Assembly (NCBI GenBank): GCA_016932855.1
Contig: JAFGCB010000025.1
Location: 13,868 to 77,867 of the forward strand
Reading direction: 5' to 3'
Length of the DNA: 64,000 nt
Origin: Candidatus Omnitrophota bacterium
GTDB taxonomy: Bacteria; Omnitrophota; Gorgyraeia; Duberdicusellales; Duberdicusellaceae
Position 1 is the first letter of the stretch; the number at the start of each line of letters is the position of its first letter. The translations under genes were made by a program, and so were the position numbers. Shown here in pieces: positions 18,230 through 57,482 of the stretch. The notes beneath the pieces are model-generated. The model searched no databases. It was not told the origin of the DNA and saw only the letters and a list, made by a program, of their open reading frames with translations.

Positions 18230-18451
18230 CTTGAATCGCTGATTGATAAATTTGCAATTAATAATCTTATCAGATATTAAGCACCGCGGTTAAAGTTTGT
18301 CCTAGATAGCCATATTGACATTTTTCCGATACCGCGAGAAAATCAACTTACTCGATAGAGGGGTCGCCACTGAAAAGGGTCGTCTCCCAAGCCCGCTGCC
18401 CCTTCTTTTATTTTGCCACCCCGCCTTTAACGCCCCCATATTTTTAAAATT

Positions 18452-18485
18452 GACTAATTTTCGAGAAAGGGTAATATATTCTTGT
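18452..18485 (+). promoter_or_regulatory. Sigma70-like promoter (TTGACT, 17 nt, TAATAT) upstream of the orphan receiver gene
   Basis: ttgactaattttcgagaaagggtaatat within a 320-bp noncoding region. Confidence 0.35.
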
Positions 18486-18552
18486 TGATAGATAATGTAA
18501 CTTTAATTCAAACGGCCTGTATTTAGGATAAAACCTTTGATTTCACCGGGTT

Positions 18553-18921
18553 ATGCTCAAGCCTAAGATACTTCTTATAGATAATGAGCCGGATTTTGTG
18601 GAACTTACTAAAGTTAATCTGCAGAATTCAGGCTTTGAAGTTTTCGGGGCGTTTAGCGGAAAAGAAGGCATAGATAAATTCGGCCAGGTTCAGCCGGACT
18701 TAGTTCTTCTTGATATCTTAATGCCCGAGATGGATGGCTTTGAGGTGCTGCATAGAATACGCAAGATTTATCCTCAGGCGAAAAATACTCCTATAATCAT
18801 GCTTACCGCAATAAGAGATTCTGATTCCATATTTAAGTCCCTGGACCGTAAGGCAACAGATTATATTATGAAGCCTTTTGTTCTGCAAGACTTGCTGGGA
18901 TTAATAAACAAATATATATAA
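18553..18921 (+). CDS. Stand-alone response-regulator receiver (CheY-like)
   Basis: 122 aa with LLIDNEPDF and DLVLLDILMPEMDG (phospho-acceptor Asp), IIMLTA and a K near the C-terminus. Confidence 0.7.
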   Translation: MLKPKILLIDNEPDFVELTKVNLQNSGFEVFGAFSGKEGIDKFGQVQPDLVLLDILMPEMDGFEVLHRIRKIYPQAKNTPIIMLTAIRDSDSIFKSLDRKATDYIMKPFVLQDLLGLINKYI

Positions 18922-18925
18922 GCTT

Positions 18926-19132
18926 ATGAAGCCTTTGATTTACTTGGTGTTTTTAATTTTTCTATTTTTCTTTGTTTTCTTCGCGAGCAACACCTGGCAG
19001 ACTGAGCATTCAACAGAAACCCGAGAGGGCATCGAGTACGTGGTAACCAGGCACAGCCTAGACTGGGATAATTTTTTTGACTATTTAAAAGATCTACCCA
19101 GAAATATACGCCTGCGTCTACCCACAAGATAA
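18926..19132 (+). CDS. Hypothetical small membrane protein
   Basis: 68 aa with a very hydrophobic N-terminus. Weak support. Confidence 0.3.
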   Translation: MKPLIYLVFLIFLFFFVFFASNTWQTEHSTETREGIEYVVTRHSLDWDNFFDYLKDLPRNIRLRLPTR

Positions 19133-19154
19133 GAGCCGTATACTAAAGGCAGAT

Positions 19155-19505
19155 ATGAAATACTTGGTTTTCGGTTTTCTGTTTATTTTTGTTTTTTATT
19201 CTCGCGGTTTCTCAGCCGAAGAAGGACGTATTGAACGAGCCCTTAACGAAGTTTTAGAGCTTCAAGCCCCTGAATATGAATGGATTCAGACCCTTAGCCC
19301 CGGCGCCGCCTCAATAGTAGTGGCTTTAGGTGAAATTGATGAAAACACTCCCGAAGCCACGGTTAAAATCAAGATTGAGGAAATTCTGGCTAAGATGCAA
19401 AAGATGAGGAAAGAATTAAAGTCTTATGGCATTACCATTGAGAGTTTTTCGCTTAATATAGGATTCCCGCCCTCTCTTACTATTAATTGCAAGTTCGAAG
19501 ATTAA
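19155..19505 (+). CDS. Hypothetical secreted protein
   Basis: Signal-peptide-like N-terminus (MKYLVFGFLFIFVFYSRGFSA). Confidence 0.4.
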   Translation: MKYLVFGFLFIFVFYSRGFSAEEGRIERALNEVLELQAPEYEWIQTLSPGAASIVVALGEIDENTPEATVKIKIEEILAKMQKMRKELKSYGITIESFSLNIGFPPSLTINCKFED

Positions 19506-19552
19506 ATGGTAAAATTCTAGTAATATACCTAATCCTTTTGAGGCTTAGATTT

Positions 19553-20020
19553 ATGAGAGATAAAAAGGCACTCGCTATAAAGGCTTTAGTTTTATTTATT
19601 GCCGTTTTTGTTTTTTATTGGGCAGCCAAGGCAGATGACAGCCATTGGTATTCAAAAAATCTTTTTGAAGTTACATCCGGCGGCGGGAAGAAATACCAAA
19701 TGGCTATTATTACTAAAACCAATGATAAAGACACCTGCGAGCAGATTCTTAACGCCAAAGGCATGGATGTAGGACGCTGGAAGAATATCGGTAATGATTG
19801 TTCTTCCGGTGAGACTAGCGACGAGGCTTTTGTTTCGATTTTTGATAATAAAGAAGTCGCAACTATTTATGTTTCTTTTGTCGATAATTACGGTTATCCT
19901 ACCCGGATTAACTTTATAGAAGCTCCCAAAGAATTTGCTAATCCCATTGCGGAAAATCTTGCCCAATCCCTGAAAGAGCAGGGCATAGAAAACGCCCAGG
20001 TCATTTATCCTCAGGATTAG
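19553..20020 (+). CDS. Hypothetical secreted protein
   Basis: Internal ATG chosen where a signal peptide begins (MRDKKALAIKALVLFIAVFVFYWAAKA). Confidence 0.4.
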   Translation: MRDKKALAIKALVLFIAVFVFYWAAKADDSHWYSKNLFEVTSGGGKKYQMAIITKTNDKDTCEQILNAKGMDVGRWKNIGNDCSSGETSDEAFVSIFDNKEVATIYVSFVDNYGYPTRINFIEAPKEFANPIAENLAQSLKEQGIENAQVIYPQD

Positions 20021-20177
20021 TCTTCGCAGCACAATCAATATCATCCCTATTTTTAAGCGATAAAATACAAAGATTTGCTTGCGGCCGGAGGGTATATATG
20101 CTATACTTATTCAACTGGATTTATCGCTGGGAGGCGGAAAATCCAGTTTTTTATTGTCTTTTGAGACTTTTTTAACT

Positions 20178-21515
20178 ATGCGGAAAATAGCGAAAAAATA
20201 CCCTGTTATTATTGTTTTATGTAATATTTTTCTCGGGTTTTCTTTTTCTGTTAAGGCCGGTTCTTTAGAGGGGTTTTCCGGTATCAAATTAGATATGGCA
20301 GCTGATAGTTTTCCGGTAGGCAGGCTGAATAGGGCCAGGGATATTCTCGATCCGGAAATCGCTGTATTCAAACAGGAACTGTTGAATTTCTCCGAATTTC
20401 ATTTAAAGACGGTGTTTAAGGAGCAGGGCTATTCAGAGGAGAAGATTTCCGAGATTTCAGATTCTTTCCAGGAACTTTTAAGCTTGATAGCCTCCCGCGT
20501 AGATATAGCTGAGATTAAGAACAGGCTGGGCTCATCCGATATAGAAATAGTTAACGACGCTTGTTTAGAGTTAATGTCGATATTAGGAGATTTGGGCTAT
20601 CTTCGCTCAGTTAAGCCGAAAGCACTGATTACAGATATAACTTATGGAATCAGAGGCGGTCAGGAATTTATCGGTTTTCTTGAAGATTCCGAGGTGTATT
20701 CCAAGCAACAAATTTCGAATCGCTTTGTCCGCTGTGTTTCCAAGACTTTTCTGGGCACTTTGCTCTTTGATTTTCTGGGAATCGAGGTAGAGTCGGCTTA
20801 TTTAAACCTGCATTCTTTTATAGCCATGCAGATAGGCAGTGAGATTTTACTTATTGACTTTGATGGCAGAAGAACGGATGTTATTAACACTTATAACTAT
20901 GAAACCAGGGGTAATTTTTTGGTTTTAAAGAGGCTGTTAGATGAAAATGGGTTAAGTACGGCTAAGGTGCCCGGCTTGTCTTATCCTTTTATTTATTTGG
21001 GAAACAGGAGCATGATTACCGCATTTCTAAACTATAATATGGGCCAGGCCTACCGCTGGGCAGGGTGTTTAGATAAGGCAGAAGAACATTTTCATCGAGC
21101 CATTGAATGCAATCCGGAGTGCGCGGAGAGTTATTACGGCCTGGGGCGTATTTACGGAGAATTACAGGATTTTAAAAAAGCTGAGCTTTATTATCAGCAG
21201 GCAGTAGATAAGAGCCCCTGGAATTTTCTTTTCTACGCCGGACTAGGACATGCGCTTTGTAAACTGAACCAGTATCACCGGGGTTTAGAGGCTTTTATGG
21301 AGGCGGTTAGTTTAAACCCCAAGTTCGCCAGAGGTTATTTCGCTATCGGCACTATTTATCAGAGGCTTGGAAGGCAGGATGAGGCTATTTTTTACTGGGC
21401 AAAGGCAGTTTCCCTGGATTTTCATCTGTTTTCATTGCTTTCTTCCTTCGATATTAAAGCTTATGTCATAGAGCAAATGCTAAAATCGCCTGAGCCGGCG
21501 TCTTTTAGCGGCTAG
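20178..21515 (+). CDS. TPR-repeat protein with signal peptide
   Basis: Internal ATG at the signal peptide (MRKIAKKYPVIIVLC...). C-terminal tandem TPRs (AESYYGLGRIYGELQDFKKAELYYQQAVDKSP etc.). Confidence 0.55.
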   Translation: MRKIAKKYPVIIVLCNIFLGFSFSVKAGSLEGFSGIKLDMAADSFPVGRLNRARDILDPEIAVFKQELLNFSEFHLKTVFKEQGYSEEKISEISDSFQELLSLIASRVDIAEIKNRLGSSDIEIVNDACLELMSILGDLGYLRSVKPKALITDITYGIRGGQEFIGFLEDSEVYSKQQISNRFVRCVSKTFLGTLLFDFLGIEVESAYLNLHSFIAMQIGSEILLIDFDGRRTDVINTYNYETRGNFLVLKRLLDENGLSTAKVPGLSYPFIYLGNRSMITAFLNYNMGQAYRWAGCLDKAEEHFHRAIECNPECAESYYGLGRIYGELQDFKKAELYYQQAVDKSPWNFLFYAGLGHALCKLNQYHRGLEAFMEAVSLNPKFARGYFAIGTIYQRLGRQDEAIFYWAKAVSLDFHLFSLLSSFDIKAYVIEQMLKSPEPASFSG

Positions 21516-21609
21516 AAAACGTTTTCATAAAAGTGTATGCACCCCTTGATTTTTCCTTAACGGTATGTTACACTAGTATGGTTAGCTTTTACCACGGTTA
21601 ACCAAAAAA

Positions 21610-21656
21610 TTTAGCAGGATAAAGGAAGTAGAAATACTTCCTTTTTTTATTGCCTT
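21610..21656 (+). terminator. Terminator-like repeat copy 1 (caggataaagg, 8-bp hairpin, T7, attgcct)
   Basis: aggaagta gaaa tacttcct followed by ttttttt. Direct repeat of 21748-21792. Confidence 0.45.
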
Positions 21657-21747
21657 GATTATCTTAAGGCTGGGTAGTTTCGGCAGGTAGAGTAAAGAAA
21701 GCCTTTACAGCCGCCTTTAATAAGGCTGGCCGAATTGAAAACAGGGA

Positions 21748-21792
21748 TTTAACAGGATAAAGGCAGAAGAACTCTGCCTTTTTTTATTGCCT
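21748..21792 (+). terminator. Terminator-like repeat copy 2
   Basis: aggcaga agaac tctgcct followed by ttttttt. Flanks are the same as copy 1, but the stem differs by compensatory changes. Confidence 0.45.
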
Positions 21793-21853
21793 AGCCTATG
21801 GGTAGAGGTTAGGTCCTTTAAATAGATGTTTTCGGAAAAAAAAGGAGGCGAAG

Positions 21854-24800
21854 ATGAAGACGGGGAAAACAAAGACTAAAAAGAATATTTTTTTATGGGG
21901 AATTATTTTTACGGGATTTCTTTTGGCGAATTTAAACTATGCTTATGCCTGGATGCCTAATTCTTTAGGCAATCCTGAGCTTCTTCAGGAAACCAACCAG
22001 CTTGCCCGCATGCAGCAAGTCATGGTTGATCTAGGTTATTTTAGAGTCATAGAAATAAAAAATCACCATATTCAATTGGGTGATAAGCAGCTGGAGGTTA
22101 TAGAAGCCTACAAGCGCGGCGAGGACGGCAAATTACATCATGTTTTGATTTCATCATTGAACGACGATTGCAGGAATCCGTCTCGTTTAGTTCAGGCGGT
22201 TCTTGCTAATGAGGATTTGCGCAATCTCATTACAGGCGCGCGGGGAAATAATGAAATTAAATTTTGGCTTGAGGTAGCATCTGCGTTAGTGGCTAGCAGC
22301 GACGAAGCTCTTATGGCTGAGTATGGTTCAAAACCAATACCTAAGCTTTACAGGGATATCTTAACCCAGAACGGAAAACCGGCACCGGATTATATTCTTA
22401 ATGAAAACAGGCTTCCTAGAGGAGCAATTTTGGTGGCGGTAGCTGATTTAGGGGTTGTAGACGAGGATGTAATTAATTTAGACGATACAGAAGTGGAAAC
22501 AGATTATAATTTCCCGCCTATAATTATTACCGGTAATCGGGAGCCTTTACCTGAAAATAAAGGCGGCTTGCGCCAGAGACACCCCGGGCCTACTCCGAAT
22601 ATTTTAATAGAAGAAATAGCCTTGACCGATTGGAACGTGGAAGCGCAAACCTATACGGTTGAGGTAGGATTTAAGAGCCAGGCTTTAGTATTTTCCAATC
22701 TAAAGGCAAGTGAAATACCCGAATTTGTCGAATTTGCAGAAGTCTATCTTGACTATCTTAACAATAAACAGAATTATATACAGCGAGGAAGAGAAATGCT
22801 GGGTGACAAAACCGATTTTACCAACGCTAAGATTGAAGGCATAATCGGGCTTGTTGATCATCTTAATCAGACAGGCAATGAATTTTTCGCTTCCAGGAAA
22901 GAAAACTTACTTTCGATTTTAGAGGGAAGTTCTGTGCATGACGGTGATTATACTGTCGGTCAATTTTACACTTCTGTTGATCAGACCGATAAGGTTTTCG
23001 CGGTATTTGAAGGCGAAATTCAACTTGTTTTCACCGGCGATGACGGCCAGCAGAAAAAAGTTTCGGTAAGCAGGGAATATGTAGTAGGCCTTCTTGCTCT
23101 TTGCGATATATCCGGCCGGGCAGCGTATCAGAACGATAATTTCTTCACCCAGGATGCCGGAAGAATTGCTGAAGGCCTTTTCGAGAGAGCTAAAGACGGG
23201 GATTATGCGTCTTTAAGCGAGCTCAGTGAGTTATATCATGATCCTGATACGCAGTACCTGGAAAGGCCGGGCGGCCAGGCCAGCGGTGCAGCAGATGGCA
23301 GTTTTCGCGTAGACGGCTCAGGCGCGACAGAAGACAGATGGCAGATTGACTTAGAGAATATAGGTTTTGATGGAATTGCTCTTTACAGAGTCGAAGCTAG
23401 AAGCGCCGGGGACGCAAATCACTTGGATGTGGCAATTGAGGCTGACGCACAGAGTAATATCCCTGCCGGCGCTAACGCGGAAGAGGGAGATTACTTAGGT
23501 AAGGCAGTCCTTACAGCTTCAGGCGCGCTTAACGGCCATGAAATTGTCACAAAAATTAACGGCTTAAGAATTACTGAACAGGGATTTACCTTTGAAGCAT
23601 TCCAAAGAGAAACCCAAGGCTATGTGGATAATGATTATTTTTGGGTAAATGCTCAGGTAGACCGTTCGACTAACCCCGAGAACTTTACCGGTCATGCGAC
23701 AGGCGAGTATAACGTGGGTCACATAAGCCGTGTTTTTGACGTAAGCGTTAATGCTGACAGCGGAGCAATCGAGGAAGTTAAAGAATTCTTAAGAGACAAT
23801 CTTCCTGATATAGATGAGGAAACAGCCATACAGATAGCAGAGGATGCTTACTCGAATATTGCAGCTTTAGTTGAGCGTAAATGGGAAAGCGGCGCTAATA
23901 TAACTTCCGAGGATATATACAATTGTATAGTTAACGCTATTGTGGATAACACTGACTACACCCGCAGCGAAGTCGGGGATATGGCGTCTGATCTTCGGCA
24001 GTTTGCCGACGCCATGTTTGAGCGGATAGTAACAACTAACTATGTTGAGACCCCCCGAGACAGCCGCACTTTACTTGATGATAAAAGAGATATAGGTATT
24101 GTGCTTGGTAAAGCATTTTCCGGAGAGTTAGAAATTCACGCCGTAGGCATTGAGGTAGACGGACGGGTGCAGGTCGGCTTTACAGTTGCAGAGGGAGGAG
24201 TTAAAGTCGGTCCTATGCAAGTAGTTGCCGCACCTACCATTACTTTACCGAAACCGGATATGAGTTTTACAGCTTTTCTTGAAAACGCTCATTTAACCGG
24301 CGCGGTTATAGGCTGGAACAGAAGTGAAAATATCGGTGACTTGAGTCAGAGTTTACTTGCCAGTTCGCAGGGTAAATTTAGTTCATCGCAGCTAGCAACT
24401 TACAGCCGATATTTGCGTGATTACATTGATGAAGCTAAGAATCCATCTTTTGGCTGGTCTGGCTTTGTAGGGTATTTAGGCAGGCCTGCTGAGGGTGATT
24501 ACGGTGTTTCCGGAGACAGGATGTTAAGTCAAGGCCTTGCCAAGGATGCCTATATAGCCACGCTTATCTACGGAAAATCAGCGGGTCTTAACAAAGAGAC
24601 TAAAGAGGGGCTTACTACCTTTTTAAGCTTTTGTTTAAACGATGAACTTGATTTTTCCGTTCCTCATGCGGATATAATAGCTCAGGTAGAGCAGCGACTT
24701 GAGAACCTCAATCGCGAGATAACCCTAAAGGATGTAAAGCAGGCTTTTAGTGAAGCTTTGGTGAATTTAGGTTTAGAAGGTCATGAGGCAGAGCTTTTTG

Positions 24801-25150
24801 AATCAGAGGCTTTTTCGCCTATGGCAAATTTAATTATTAAAGATATAAACACCCTGGTATACTTCGGGGTTAGTTTCATAAACCGGGATAATTCTAATTC
24901 CTTGCAGTTTAACGCGGGTTCTTCAAAAGCTTTTGGAAGCTTACTTCTTTCAACCAACCCCAGAGATAATTTCAACTTCTCAGCAGGGTTTGGCGTAAAA
25001 TTCAGTGATACTACGATCAGGTTTGGGTTGAATAAAGAAGGCAAGGGCCAGATTGATGCAGCAAGAAGTTTTGATAATGGAACAGTTTTAAGCGGCACAG
25101 CAACGCCCGGTCTTTATATGCTTCGTCTCGGTATACCCCTCAATCCATAA
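21854..25150 (+). CDS. Large (1098 aa) secreted/surface protein, unknown function
   Basis: Clean ORF with an SD (AAAGGAGG) and a signal peptide. It is Asp/Gly-rich, and its C-terminal ~200 aa have alternating amphipathic strands, possibly a beta-barrel or anchoring domain. No motif I can name. Confidence 0.6.
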   Translation: MKTGKTKTKKNIFLWGIIFTGFLLANLNYAYAWMPNSLGNPELLQETNQLARMQQVMVDLGYFRVIEIKNHHIQLGDKQLEVIEAYKRGEDGKLHHVLISSLNDDCRNPSRLVQAVLANEDLRNLITGARGNNEIKFWLEVASALVASSDEALMAEYGSKPIPKLYRDILTQNGKPAPDYILNENRLPRGAILVAVADLGVVDEDVINLDDTEVETDYNFPPIIITGNREPLPENKGGLRQRHPGPTPNILIEEIALTDWNVEAQTYTVEVGFKSQALVFSNLKASEIPEFVEFAEVYLDYLNNKQNYIQRGREMLGDKTDFTNAKIEGIIGLVDHLNQTGNEFFASRKENLLSILEGSSVHDGDYTVGQFYTSVDQTDKVFAVFEGEIQLVFTGDDGQQKKVSVSREYVVGLLALCDISGRAAYQNDNFFTQDAGRIAEGLFERAKDGDYASLSELSELYHDPDTQYLERPGGQASGAADGSFRVDGSGATEDRWQIDLENIGFDGIALYRVEARSAGDANHLDVAIEADAQSNIPAGANAEEGDYLGKAVLTASGALNGHEIVTKINGLRITEQGFTFEAFQRETQGYVDNDYFWVNAQVDRSTNPENFTGHATGEYNVGHISRVFDVSVNADSGAIEEVKEFLRDNLPDIDEETAIQIAEDAYSNIAALVERKWESGANITSEDIYNCIVNAIVDNTDYTRSEVGDMASDLRQFADAMFERIVTTNYVETPRDSRTLLDDKRDIGIVLGKAFSGELEIHAVGIEVDGRVQVGFTVAEGGVKVGPMQVVAAPTITLPKPDMSFTAFLENAHLTGAVIGWNRSENIGDLSQSLLASSQGKFSSSQLATYSRYLRDYIDEAKNPSFGWSGFVGYLGRPAEGDYGVSGDRMLSQGLAKDAYIATLIYGKSAGLNKETKEGLTTFLSFCLNDELDFSVPHADIIAQVEQRLENLNREITLKDVKQAFSEALVNLGLEGHEAELFESEAFSPMANLIIKDINTLVYFGVSFINRDNSNSLQFNAGSSKAFGSLLLSTNPRDNFNFSAGFGVKFSDTTIRFGLNKEGKGQIDAARSFDNGTVLSGTATPGLYMLRLGIPLNP

Positions 25151-25564
25151 GCTGGATAAAGGCGTGTAATTATCGCAGCCAGAATCAGCTTGAAAAGGGT
25201 TAAGGCCTGTGAAACAGGATGTTCTCGCAGGCCTTAAACCATTGTTAATTAAAGGGGACGCTTCTATTTTTTCACAATGAATATAAGCGCCCCCTTTTAC
25301 AAAATCCTTCTTTACACCCCCAAAAAAACCATATATAATAAATTTTCGCAAATATTCCCAAGGGTTTTCGTGTCTTTCGATGAATTCCGGAGGTTTTTAG
25401 CAATTGCAGGCACCTCGGCTTTAATAGCCTTAGTGCCGTCACTTGCCAGCGATAACTTAGTAGGCAAGTGATCCCGAGCAAAGCGAGGGAACTTTGAAAG
25501 GCATCTCGCTTCGCTCGATGCCGAAAAAAATAAAGGAAAGGGAACCTGATATTCTTCATTTTTT

Positions 25565-42560: not shown

Positions 42561-44274
<1,714 letters not shown>

Positions 44275-44286
44275 GAAAGTATATAA

Positions 44287-44317
44287 CTTTAAAAAAGCCC
44301 TCTAGATTTGTCTAGAG
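44287..44317 (+). terminator. Rho-independent terminator after groEL
   Basis: gccctctaga tttg tctagagggc followed by tttttt. A-run upstream, so possibly bidirectional. Confidence 0.8.
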
Positions 44318-44442
44318 GGCTTTTTTATTACCGCGGCTTTTCCGCCTTTTTTCATTGAAAAAATCTATATTTATGCTAAAGTAAGTTTTAATTTAATGTA
44401 ACTTCCTAAGTCAAAAGACCGTTTCTAATTAACCCGTCAGAC

Positions 44443-56797: not shown

Positions 56798-56879
56798 TTT
56801 ATAAATTATTTTCTTCATTTATCTCACCGTAAACGTTTCATTTTTTTTTCGAATATTTGAGAAAAAGGGTTGACAGGTT

Positions 56880-56908
56880 TTTTAAAATTTGTTACATTAA
56901 ATATTGTA
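56880..56908 (+). promoter_or_regulatory. Sigma70-like promoter TTGACA, 17 nt, TACATT
   Basis: ttgacaggttttttaaaatttgttacatt lies about 45 nt upstream of a strong SD and the lysine-rich micro-ORF. Confidence 0.5.
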
Positions 56909-56953
56909 AGGAAAATGTTTTAAAAGTTATTCATCCAACAAAAAGGAGGTGAG

Positions 56954-57004
56954 AATGGCAAAGAAGAAAGCAAAGAAAAAGGCAACAAAGAAAAAGAAGA
57001 AATA
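56954..57004 (+). CDS. Lysine-rich micro-ORF MAKKKAKKKATKKKKK (16 aa)
   Basis: AAAGGAGGTGAGA ATG with ideal spacing, its own promoter upstream and an intrinsic terminator about 90 nt downstream. Confidence 0.35.
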
Positions 57005-57091
57005 AGACAGCGATCACCTTGAGTTAGAAGCACTAGAAAAAGACAGCGACGAAAAAAAAAGAGAAGACAACAAAGAAAGTTATTAATAAAA

Positions 57092-57120
57092 GCCTGCCTG
57101 TAAAACGGCAGGCTTTTGTT
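57092..57120 (+). terminator. Rho-independent terminator closing the micro-ORF unit
   Basis: gcctgcc tgtaaaac ggcaggc followed by ttttgtt. Confidence 0.7.
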
Positions 57121-57482
57121 ATCAGATCTACCGAAAAGGGAACGCTTTATTTTTAATTGTGTAAATGAAAAAGTAAACTCCTTAAAGACAGAAGGCTTCG
57201 GTATAAAGGCCAATAATATTCAGGTTTGTAACTATCTGTTCAGCAAGTAGTTGCGAAGACTGTTTCCATAGGGTTTCCTGTTGATTTCAAATCGGGCTTT
57301 TTTCGAATTTCGCGGCGTTTTGGACTTCTCTGCAGCATTCTTATTTGTGTTTCAGTTTTGCTTAATTTTCAATTGACTTATACCTCAGCAATAGGTATTC
57401 TAGTATTCGTTCTTATCAGATTGAGGAATCTTAACACACCTTTTTGAATGCTTTTCATGACAAATTTACCGGCGAGATTGCT

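What the first reader, a model, noticed from the sequence alone, without database searches (positions are those of the whole stretch)
21600..21800. Two tandem terminator-like hairpin modules with compensatory stem substitutions
Copy 1 is tttagcaggataaagg-AGGAAGTAgaaaTACTTCCT-ttttttt-attgcct. Copy 2 is tttaacaggataaagg-AGGCAGAagaacTCTGCCT-ttttttt-attgcct. They lie 138 bp apart. The flanks are conserved while the stems differ by paired changes that keep the base pairing, which suggests the RNA structure is under selection. Possibilities are duplicated small-RNA 3-prime ends, a tandem sRNA gene pair, or a duplicated attenuator in the leader of the 1098-aa secreted protein gene.
Basis: seen in the sequence. 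Interest (0 to 1): 0.5.

Follow-up and report, generated by a model that had tools for sequence, protein, structure and literature searches.

The report
Two copied terminator hairpins in tandem
Two near-identical 47-base "stop transcription" hairpins sit 138 bases apart between two genes of an uncultured Omnitrophota bacterium; they are real but most likely ordinary transcription terminators that were copied once, and there is no evidence yet that they mark a new RNA family.

Summary
Two modules, 47 and 46 nt (21609-21655 and 21747-21792, + strand), share ATTTA[G/A]CAGGATAAAGG...CCTTTTTTTATTGCCT. Each encloses a perfect hairpin of 10 or 9 bp followed by seven T. They are the best intrinsic-terminator shapes in the window, which has only four strong ones in 64 kb.

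"Compensatory" reduces to one clean double change (A-U to C-G) and one apex re-registration. Similarity stops at the module edges.

No third copy exists in the window, in 18 kb more of the same genome, or in syntenic loci of relatives. Exact-flank scans of genome, metagenome and viral collections gave only unrelated generic terminators. Rfam gives nothing. Both flanking genes are lineage-specific; the 1098-aa protein is an ORFan among 1.84 billion representatives. This rules out comparative tests.

Best reading: two paralogous Rho-independent terminators in series. They end the upstream five-gene operon and gate read-through into the ORFan gene, which has no promoter-like site of its own after the second terminator.

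Not excluded: a ~68-nt small RNA from a weak promoter-like site ending at terminator 1, or a factor-controlled double attenuator. Low interest: a new member of a known kind.

The parts
21609..21655 (+). Module 1 (47 nt): ATTTAGCAGGAT + hairpin + T-run + ATTGCCT
   Evidence: Covariance model R1 scores it 73.4 bits.
21621..21648 (+). Terminator 1: 10-bp stem AAAGGAAGTA/TACTTCCTTT, loop GAAA, seven T at 21642-21648
   Evidence: -11.2 kcal/mol.
21747..21792 (+). Module 2 (46 nt): ATTTAACAGGAT + hairpin + T-run + ATTGCCT
   Evidence: R1 scores it 70.8 bits.
21759..21785 (+). Terminator 2: 9-bp stem AAAGGCAGA/TCTGCCTTT, loop AGAAC, seven T at 21779-21785
   Evidence: -11.5 kcal/mol.
21546..21574 (+). 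P1, a weak sigma70-like site: TTGATT, 17 nt, TGtTACACT (8 of 12 plus an extended-minus-10 TG). It would start an RNA near 21581.
   Evidence: It is the best site in the spacer but falls below the 9/12 cut. Function is inferred, not shown.
21579..21604 (+). 5' hairpin of the putative ~68-nt unit-1 RNA (9 bp, 8-nt loop)
   Evidence: Fold of 21578-21652 gives -22.4 kcal/mol, z = -4.6, much of it from the terminator.
21679..21734 (+). Predicted three-way junction between the two terminators (unit 2 body)
   Evidence: z = -1.7 for 21660-21790, so not significant. Prediction only.
20079..21515 (+). Upstream gene: TPR protein (478 aa), last gene of a tightly packed run that starts with a response regulator at 18553. 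A promoter-like site lies at 18315.
21854..25150 (+). Downstream gene: 1098-aa secreted ORFan. GGAGG at 21844-21848. No sigma70-like site between terminator 2 and the ATG.

Best explanation
The two modules are paralogous Rho-independent (intrinsic) terminators. One roughly 47-nt terminator-bearing segment is present twice, acting in series on + strand transcription in the 338-bp spacer between the TPR gene and the ORFan 1098-aa gene.

Mechanism. RNA polymerase arrives from the upstream response-regulator-to-TPR operon, and possibly from the weak site P1. It transcribes the AAAGG...CCUUU hairpin followed by UUUUAUU and releases the RNA near 21645-21650. Polymerases that escape meet the second copy 138 nt later, so the two leak rates multiply.

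No promoter-like site lies in the 65 nt between terminator 2 and the ribosome-binding site of the 1098-aa gene. That gene would therefore receive only the read-through fraction, and the pair would work as a double insulator or attenuator.

Shown: the hairpins, the T-runs, their orientation, their paralogy and their uniqueness. Inferred: that termination happens there, which transcripts end there, and that the downstream gene depends on read-through.

The helix base and U-tract are conserved because termination needs them. The apex was free to change as long as it stayed paired.
For: - Both sites meet the terminator scan and are the top two sites in 20000-23000.
- A stricter scan finds only four strong sites in 64 kb (21621, 21759, 44295, 57091) and none in 18 kb more. 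These two are therefore not background.
- All credible genes are on the + strand, and the hairpins have a T-run only on +.
- The reverse strand has only CCTTTATCC after the stem.
- Paralogy is confined to the module: the flanking spacers are no more alike than shuffles, p about 0.2.
- Pairing is kept despite 5-6 changes in the apex.
- Exact-flank hits elsewhere are ordinary terminators. This shows that AAAGG...CCTTTTTTTAT is a generic terminator shape.
- The spacer has no sigma70-like site of 8/12 or better except P1, which lies upstream of terminator 1. Several operon starts in the window have sites of 9 to 11 out of 12.
Against: - There are no transcript data.
- The 16 flank positions that termination does not need (ATTTARCAGGAT and GCCT) differ at only one base, while the apex differs at 5 of 14 (p = 0.07 by Fisher; 0.008 if both evolved at the apex rate). 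This hints at an extra sequence-specific role, or at apex hypermutability.
- Terminator 1 lies 105 nt after the TPR stop codon, rather far for a plain gene terminator, and P1 fits neatly into that gap.
- An alternative sigma factor could drive the 1098-aa gene from a site I cannot recognise.
Confidence: 0.5

Rival explanations
1. One or two small-RNA genes (sibling sRNAs). P1 would drive a ~68-nt RNA (about 21581-21648) made of a 5' hairpin, an A/U-rich single-stranded linker containing CAGGAUA, and terminator 1. Unit 2 would be a second RNA of ~130 nt, or a ~205-nt read-through isoform. The shared 3' module (AUUUA, hairpin, U-tail) would be a chaperone-binding or stability platform kept by selection.
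For: - P1 (TTGATT-17-TGtTACACT) places the start exactly at the foot of a 9-bp hairpin.
- The 75-nt stretch folds with z = -4.6.
- Strong terminators are rare in this genome, and one of the other two closes a tiny independent transcription unit.
- The outer flanks are better conserved than the apex.
- There is no coding potential in the spacer.
Against: - P1 matches only 8/12, and sites of that quality are common by chance (shuffles).
- Unit 2 has no site of 8/12 or better, and its fold is not significant, z = -1.7.
- No Rfam family matches: the best + strand hit is FopS at 20 bits against a gathering score of 56, and PrrB/RsmZ scores 11.4 against 44.
- No homologue was found in relatives or in public collections.
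- Linker complementarity to 50 translation-start regions is no better than for shuffled linkers.
- No Hfq or CsrA gene was found in the window.
Confidence: 0.25
2. A factor-controlled double attenuator. An RNA-binding protein or a trans RNA would recognise the shared 5' flank AUUUARCAGGAUAAAGG, which overlaps the 5' base of both stems. It would block hairpin formation at both terminators at once and so switch on the 1098-aa secreted protein.
For: - The conserved element overlaps the 5' arm of both terminators while the upper stems differ, as in protein-dependent antitermination sites.
- There is no promoter-like site after terminator 2.
- Two sites in series would give steep control.
Against: - No candidate RNA-binding regulator lies nearby. 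The neighbours are a bare receiver domain, three small proteins with no family match, and a TPR protein.
- The conserved 3' flank ATTGCCT is left unexplained.
- No stable alternative pairing exists. The best antiterminator-like fold is -5.6 kcal/mol in unit 1, and the partners in the two units differ.
- No known aptamer or leader family matches.
- The flank-versus-apex contrast is only p = 0.07 once terminator-essential positions are removed.
Confidence: 0.15
3. Two copies of a dispersed or mobile terminator-like repeat (REP- or MITE-like) that happen to lie side by side.
For: - The repeat has sharp boundaries and no flanking similarity.
- Only about 82 kb of the genome could be examined.
- The locus lies in a variable island next to tRNA-Pro.
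Against: - No third copy was found by mismatch search, by regex or by covariance model in the window, in L029/L030 or in the relatives.
- No true hit was found in 185,579 species genomes, the JGI metagenomes or IMG/VR.
- There are no terminal inverted repeats beyond the hairpin itself.
Confidence: 0.07
4. The paired changes need no selection on RNA. Template switching within a quasi-palindrome during replication copies a mutation from one arm onto the other, so a recently duplicated hairpin diverges fast at its apex while keeping complementarity.
For: Changes are concentrated in the palindromic apex, while the flanks are nearly identical. This is what recency plus a hairpin-specific mutation process would give. 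It rests on established knowledge of quasipalindrome template-switch mutagenesis and was not tested here.
Against: - It explains how the copies diverged, not what they do, so it is compatible with every functional reading.
- It cannot be tested with two sequences.
Confidence: 0.3

Closest known systems
Rho-independent (intrinsic) terminators, including tandem terminators
   Same: A hairpin of 9-10 bp with a 4-5-nt loop, a run of seven U, an upstream A-tract, an intergenic position and co-orientation with the genes. Two in series to lower read-through.
   Different: The two copies are paralogues that share 12 nt upstream and 4 nt downstream of the functional core. Plain terminators do not need this. 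The organism otherwise uses very few such terminators.
Tandem sibling sRNAs (for example OmrA/OmrB, PrrF1/PrrF2; from general knowledge)
   Same: Adjacent, co-oriented units in one intergenic spacer, each ending in a terminator. They have a conserved block and a divergent remainder.
   Different: A (weak) promoter-like site exists for the first unit only. The conserved block is the terminator region rather than a seed. There are no homologues in other genomes and no target signal.
Hfq-binding 3' module of enterobacterial sRNAs (U-rich stretch, terminator hairpin, poly-U tail; from general knowledge)
   Same: AUUUA lies 7 nt upstream of the hairpin, followed by the hairpin and a U7 tail.
   Different: No Hfq gene was found in the available sequence. 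The pattern is low in information and also fits any terminator.
Protein-dependent antitermination sites and tandem leader terminators (RAT/BglG, ANTAR, tandem T-box leaders; from general knowledge)
   Same: A conserved sequence overlaps the 5' arm of a variable terminator. It is repeated upstream of one gene.
   Different: No cognate regulator gene, no matching consensus or Rfam family, and no stable antiterminator fold.
CsrB/RsmY/RsmZ-type sponges
   Same: CAGGAU motifs next to a terminator. A sub-threshold PrrB/RsmZ hit (11.4 bits).
   Different: Only two GGA motifs per unit, the score is far below the gathering score of 44, and no CsrA gene is in the window.

Membership tests
Rho-independent terminator | Stable G+C-containing stem-loop (stem of 5 bp or more, loop of 3-8 nt) | tested here: met
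   10 bp with loop 4 (-11.2 kcal/mol) and 9 bp with loop 5 (-11.5 kcal/mol).
Rho-independent terminator | U-run directly after the stem | tested here: met
   Seven T at 21642-21648 and 21779-21785.
Rho-independent terminator | Intergenic, downstream of and co-oriented with a transcription unit | tested here: met
   The spacer is 21516-21853 and all genes are on +.
Rho-independent terminator | RNA 3' ends map to the U-run | not testable with these tools
   No transcript data are available for this MAG.
Trans-acting sRNA gene / sibling sRNA pair | Own promoter for each unit | tested here: inconclusive
   Unit 1 has TTGATT-17-TGtTACACT (8/12 plus TG). Unit 2 has nothing of 8/12 or better.
Trans-acting sRNA gene / sibling sRNA pair | Conservation of the RNA in related genomes, or membership of a curated family | tested here: not met
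   Rfam gave nothing. No copy was found in the relatives' syntenic loci or in the public collections.
Trans-acting sRNA gene / sibling sRNA pair | Seed complementarity to target mRNAs | tested here: inconclusive
   The best duplexes with 50 start regions in the window are no better than for shuffled seeds. The rest of the genome could not be seen.
CsrB/RsmZ-type sponge RNA | Many (5 or more) GGA motifs in loops or single strands, and a match to the family model | tested here: not met
   Two GGA motifs per unit. PrrB_RsmZ scores 11.4 bits against a gathering score of 44, E = 4.7.
Transcription attenuator / riboswitch leader | Terminator lies between the promoter and the regulated ORF | tested here: inconclusive
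   No sigma70-like site lies after terminator 2. P1 and the operon promoter lie upstream. Promoters of other sigma factors cannot be recognised.
Transcription attenuator / riboswitch leader | Mutually exclusive antiterminator structure, a known aptamer, or a leader peptide | tested here: not met
   Only weak A/U-rich alternative pairings were found (-5.6 kcal/mol in unit 1, with different partners in unit 2). No Rfam aptamer matched. No ORF with a ribosome-binding site was found.
Dispersed repeat (REP/MITE-like) | Many copies scattered in the genome | tested here: not met
   Only the two adjacent copies exist in 64 kb plus 18 kb. The whole MAG was not available.

The most novel reading that the evidence does not exclude
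The shared 47-nt module is a functional RNA platform specific to this Omnitrophota lineage. Either it forms the common 3' end of two sibling small RNAs, or it is a binding site through which one factor opens both terminators and switches on the ORFan secreted protein. Either case would be the first regulatory RNA element described in this uncultured phylum.
Probability: 0.25. Interest if true: 0.4.

Novelty: new member of a known kind. Interest (0 to 1): 0.17.

Why it matters
If the plain reading holds, it matters little. It is an example of a duplicated terminator in a genome that otherwise uses few intrinsic terminators. It also gives a hint about how a lineage-specific secreted protein is kept at low expression.

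If the outer flanks prove functional, this would be an entry point to RNA-based regulation in Omnitrophota, a phylum without cultured model organisms. My literature search found no described small RNAs for it. Because the element is confined to one MAG, its general significance would stay limited either way.

Tried and rejected
1. Rfam at gathering thresholds and at E up to 10 on the spacer, and at E up to 0.5 on the whole window. Only tRNA-Pro was found. The sub-threshold hits (Spy1786666 on the minus strand, FopS, L20 leader, PrrB/RsmZ) align mainly to the terminator hairpin.

2. Orthologous spacers through the flanking genes. This was impossible: the TPR protein has only generic TPR hits, and the 1098-aa protein has no homologue at all.

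3. Synteny through homoserine dehydrogenase. Relatives at 70-74% identity keep tRNA-Pro, PilZ and Hom, but carry other genes, or a contig end, where the modules would be. No module was found.

4. Exact-flank scans of genome contigs (9 hits), metagenome contigs (13 hits) and viral contigs (1 hit). All are single hits in unrelated taxa, none has both outer flanks, and most are generic terminators.

5. Extension of the repeat beyond 47 nt, or a 138-nt tandem unit. Neither is supported (TRF found nothing).

6. CsrA sponge idea. There are too few GGA motifs and no CsrA gene in the window.

7. Seed-target search. No signal.

8. Intrinsic antiterminator. Only weak alternative pairings.

9. Small ORFs. 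A 22-aa GTG ORF and a 51-aa minus-strand ORF, neither with a ribosome-binding site.

10. By eye only: sigma54-like and sigma28-like sites, an integron attC-like reading (ATTTAAC ... GTTAGGT), and pairing of the U-tract with the A-rich ribosome-binding site of the 1098-aa gene (I4-I6). I rejected all of these as low-information coincidences.

Full report
**What is there**

The 338-bp spacer between a TPR-protein gene (20079-21515) and a 1098-aa ORF (21854-25150) holds two copies of a 47/46-nt module, at 21609-21655 and 21747-21792 on the + strand.
- The flank pattern matches exactly twice in the window and never in 100 shuffles.
- The start-to-start distance is 138 nt.
- Each module is ATTTA[G/A]CAGGAT, then a perfect hairpin, then a T-run that reaches seven T, then ATTGCCT.
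- Hairpin 1 is AAAGGAAGTA-gaaa-TACTTCCTTT. Hairpin 2 is AAAGGCAGA-agaac-TCTGCCTTT.
- The hairpins fold at -11.2 and -11.5 kcal/mol.

**How special it is**

The consensus terminator scan finds no more sites in this window than in shuffles: 24 against 22 expected, and 30 against 23 expected. A stricter scan leaves four strong sites in 64 kb: these two, 44295 and 57091. It finds none in 18 kb of extra sequence from the same genome. The pair is therefore not background.

The repeat does not extend beyond the module.
- The spacers upstream and downstream of the two copies are no more similar than shuffled sequence, p about 0.2.
- Tandem Repeats Finder reports nothing.

No third copy was found.
- Flank searches with up to 3 mismatches find nothing more.
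- A covariance model of the module scores 73 and 71 bits on the two copies. Its next best hit is 16 bits in the window, in the 18 kb of extra sequence and in relatives' loci.

**The 'compensatory' claim**

On the most parsimonious alignment (A2) the copies differ by six events:
- one flank substitution (G/A);
- one double change that keeps a pair (A-U to C-G);
- a T-to-A substitution plus a 1-nt deletion, which together re-register the apical pair;
- one loop substitution.

With two sequences the formal covariation statistics are empty: 257 of 500 shuffles do as well.

An alignment-free check is more telling. Only 1.5% of random five-substitution variants of the apical 14 nt keep a hairpin of -11 kcal/mol or better. 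Pairing has therefore probably been selected, as expected for any working terminator.

Differences cluster in the apex: 5 of 14 positions against 1 of 33, p = 0.006. But 17 of the 33 conserved flank positions are the helix base AAAGG/CCTTT and the U-tract, which termination itself constrains. Against the other 16 positions the contrast is p = 0.07. The module edges were also defined by where identity ends, which inflates flank identity.

**Origin and context**

The window comes from a metagenome-assembled 'Candidatus Omnitrophica bacterium' (protein name; sample SRR13394437). All credible genes in 64 kb, and in the 18 kb beyond, are on the + strand.

Upstream lies a tight run of genes: response-regulator receiver, a 68-aa ORF, then proteins of 116 aa, 177 aa and the TPR protein. 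A 10/12 promoter-like site sits at 18315.

The 1098-aa protein has a signal-peptide-like N-terminus and a GGAGG ribosome-binding site. It has no homologue in 5.8 billion clustered proteins or in 1.84 billion representatives read by HMMER. The TPR protein has only generic TPR hits.

In a relative with 70% identical homoserine dehydrogenase, the same anchors (nitroreductase ... tRNA-Pro, PilZ, Hom) enclose different genes and no module. The whole segment of about 18300-25560 is therefore a lineage-specific island, and comparative analysis of the spacer is not possible.

**Searches elsewhere**

- Rfam gives only tRNA-Pro in the window. Sub-threshold hits on the spacer align to the terminator hairpin.
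- The pattern CAGGATAAAGG-N10-24-CCTTTTTTTAT found 9 loci in 185,579 species genomes, 13 in the metagenome collection and 1 in IMG/VR.
- All of these are single hits in unrelated taxa, and none carries both of the outer flanks ATTTAR and ATTGCCT. Most are plain terminators of the form AAAGG...CCTTTTTTT.
- This shows two things. The inner half of the 'conserved flanks' is a generic terminator shape, and no family with these flanks exists in the collections. The source genome itself is not in them.

**Function**

The shown part is two intrinsic-terminator structures in series on the coding strand.

For promoters, a permissive scan finds one site worth naming. P1 is TTGATT-17-TGtTACACT at 21546-21574, matching 8/12 plus TG.
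- Nothing of 8/12 or better lies between the terminators, or between terminator 2 and the ATG.
- Several operon starts in the window have sites of 9 to 11 out of 12.

My best reading (confidence 0.5) is that the pair ends transcription from the upstream operon (and from P1, if it is active) and lets only a small read-through fraction reach the ORFan gene.

The sRNA reading (0.25) rests on three points:
- P1 places a start at the foot of a 9-bp hairpin. This would give a tidy ~68-nt RNA (z = -4.6).
- The outer flanks are unusually well conserved.
- Strong terminators are rare here, and the one at 57091 closes a mini-gene with its own promoter.

Against the sRNA reading:
- P1 is weak.
- Unit 2 has no promoter-like site, and its fold is not significant.
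- No homologues exist.
- No seed-target signal was found.
- No Hfq or CsrA gene is in the window.

A factor-controlled double attenuator (0.15) would explain a conserved element that overlaps the 5' arm of both stems. However, no regulator candidate lies nearby and no stable antiterminator fold exists. The element also matches no known aptamer family, and the conserved 3' flank is left unexplained.

A dispersed repeat (0.07) is unlikely but cannot be excluded, because only about 82 kb of the genome was visible.

Quasi-palindrome template switching could produce paired apex changes without RNA-level selection. It is compatible with every functional reading.

**Verdict**

The thing is a duplicated intrinsic terminator: a new member of a known kind, confined to one uncultured genome. 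There is a mild, unresolved hint that 16 flank bases are conserved beyond what termination needs. Interest is low (0.17) unless transcript data show a small RNA or regulated read-through.

Noticed in passing
window 56870-57125: A mini transcription unit. It has a near-consensus promoter-like site (TTGACA-17-TGtTACATT), a strong ribosome-binding site AAAGGAGG and a 16-codon ORF at 56956-57006 encoding MAKKKAKKKATKKKKK. A strong bidirectional terminator follows at 57091-57114. The ORF is too short for the ORF lister.
   Followed up: partly
window 25152-25243: At the stop codon of the 1098-aa gene lies CTGGATAAAGGC, a 1-mismatch echo of the module's 5' flank. About 45 nt later comes a 12-bp hairpin, GGTTAAGGCCTG...CAGGCCTTAAACC, whose 18-nt loop holds ACAGGATGT. 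No T-run follows it.
   Followed up: no
window ~18300-25560, compared with L028 1-4900: The segment between the nitroreductase gene and tRNA-Pro(GGG) is a variable island. It carries the response regulator, three small unknown ORFs, the TPR protein, the modules and the ORFan. A relative (GCA_042562545.1) has a 585-aa minus-strand gene and a T2SSE-type ATPase between the same anchors. JGI contigs of a closer relative break just upstream of tRNA-Pro.
   Followed up: partly
window 21854-25150: The 1098-aa ORF has a signal-peptide-like start and no detectable homologue in 1.84 billion representative proteins. It also has no Pfam or NCBIfam match.
   Followed up: yes
window 1-64000, L029, L030: Every credible gene over about 82 kb is on the + strand, and GC skew is positive in all 2-kb bins. 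Canonical intrinsic terminators are very rare: four strong ones in 64 kb.
   Followed up: partly
window 21665-21673 and 21721-21729: The 9-mer TAAGGCTGG occurs twice within the stretch between the two terminators. GGGTAG follows each module, at 21672 and 21800, but at different distances. The meaning is unknown and both may be chance.
   Followed up: no
window 44295-44322: The strongest terminator in the window is a 12-bp stem, AAGCCCTCTAGA...TCTAGAGGGCTT, with T-runs on both strands (-19.4 kcal/mol). It lies 20 nt after the gene that ends at 44274 and is followed by a promoter-like site at 44355.
   Followed up: no
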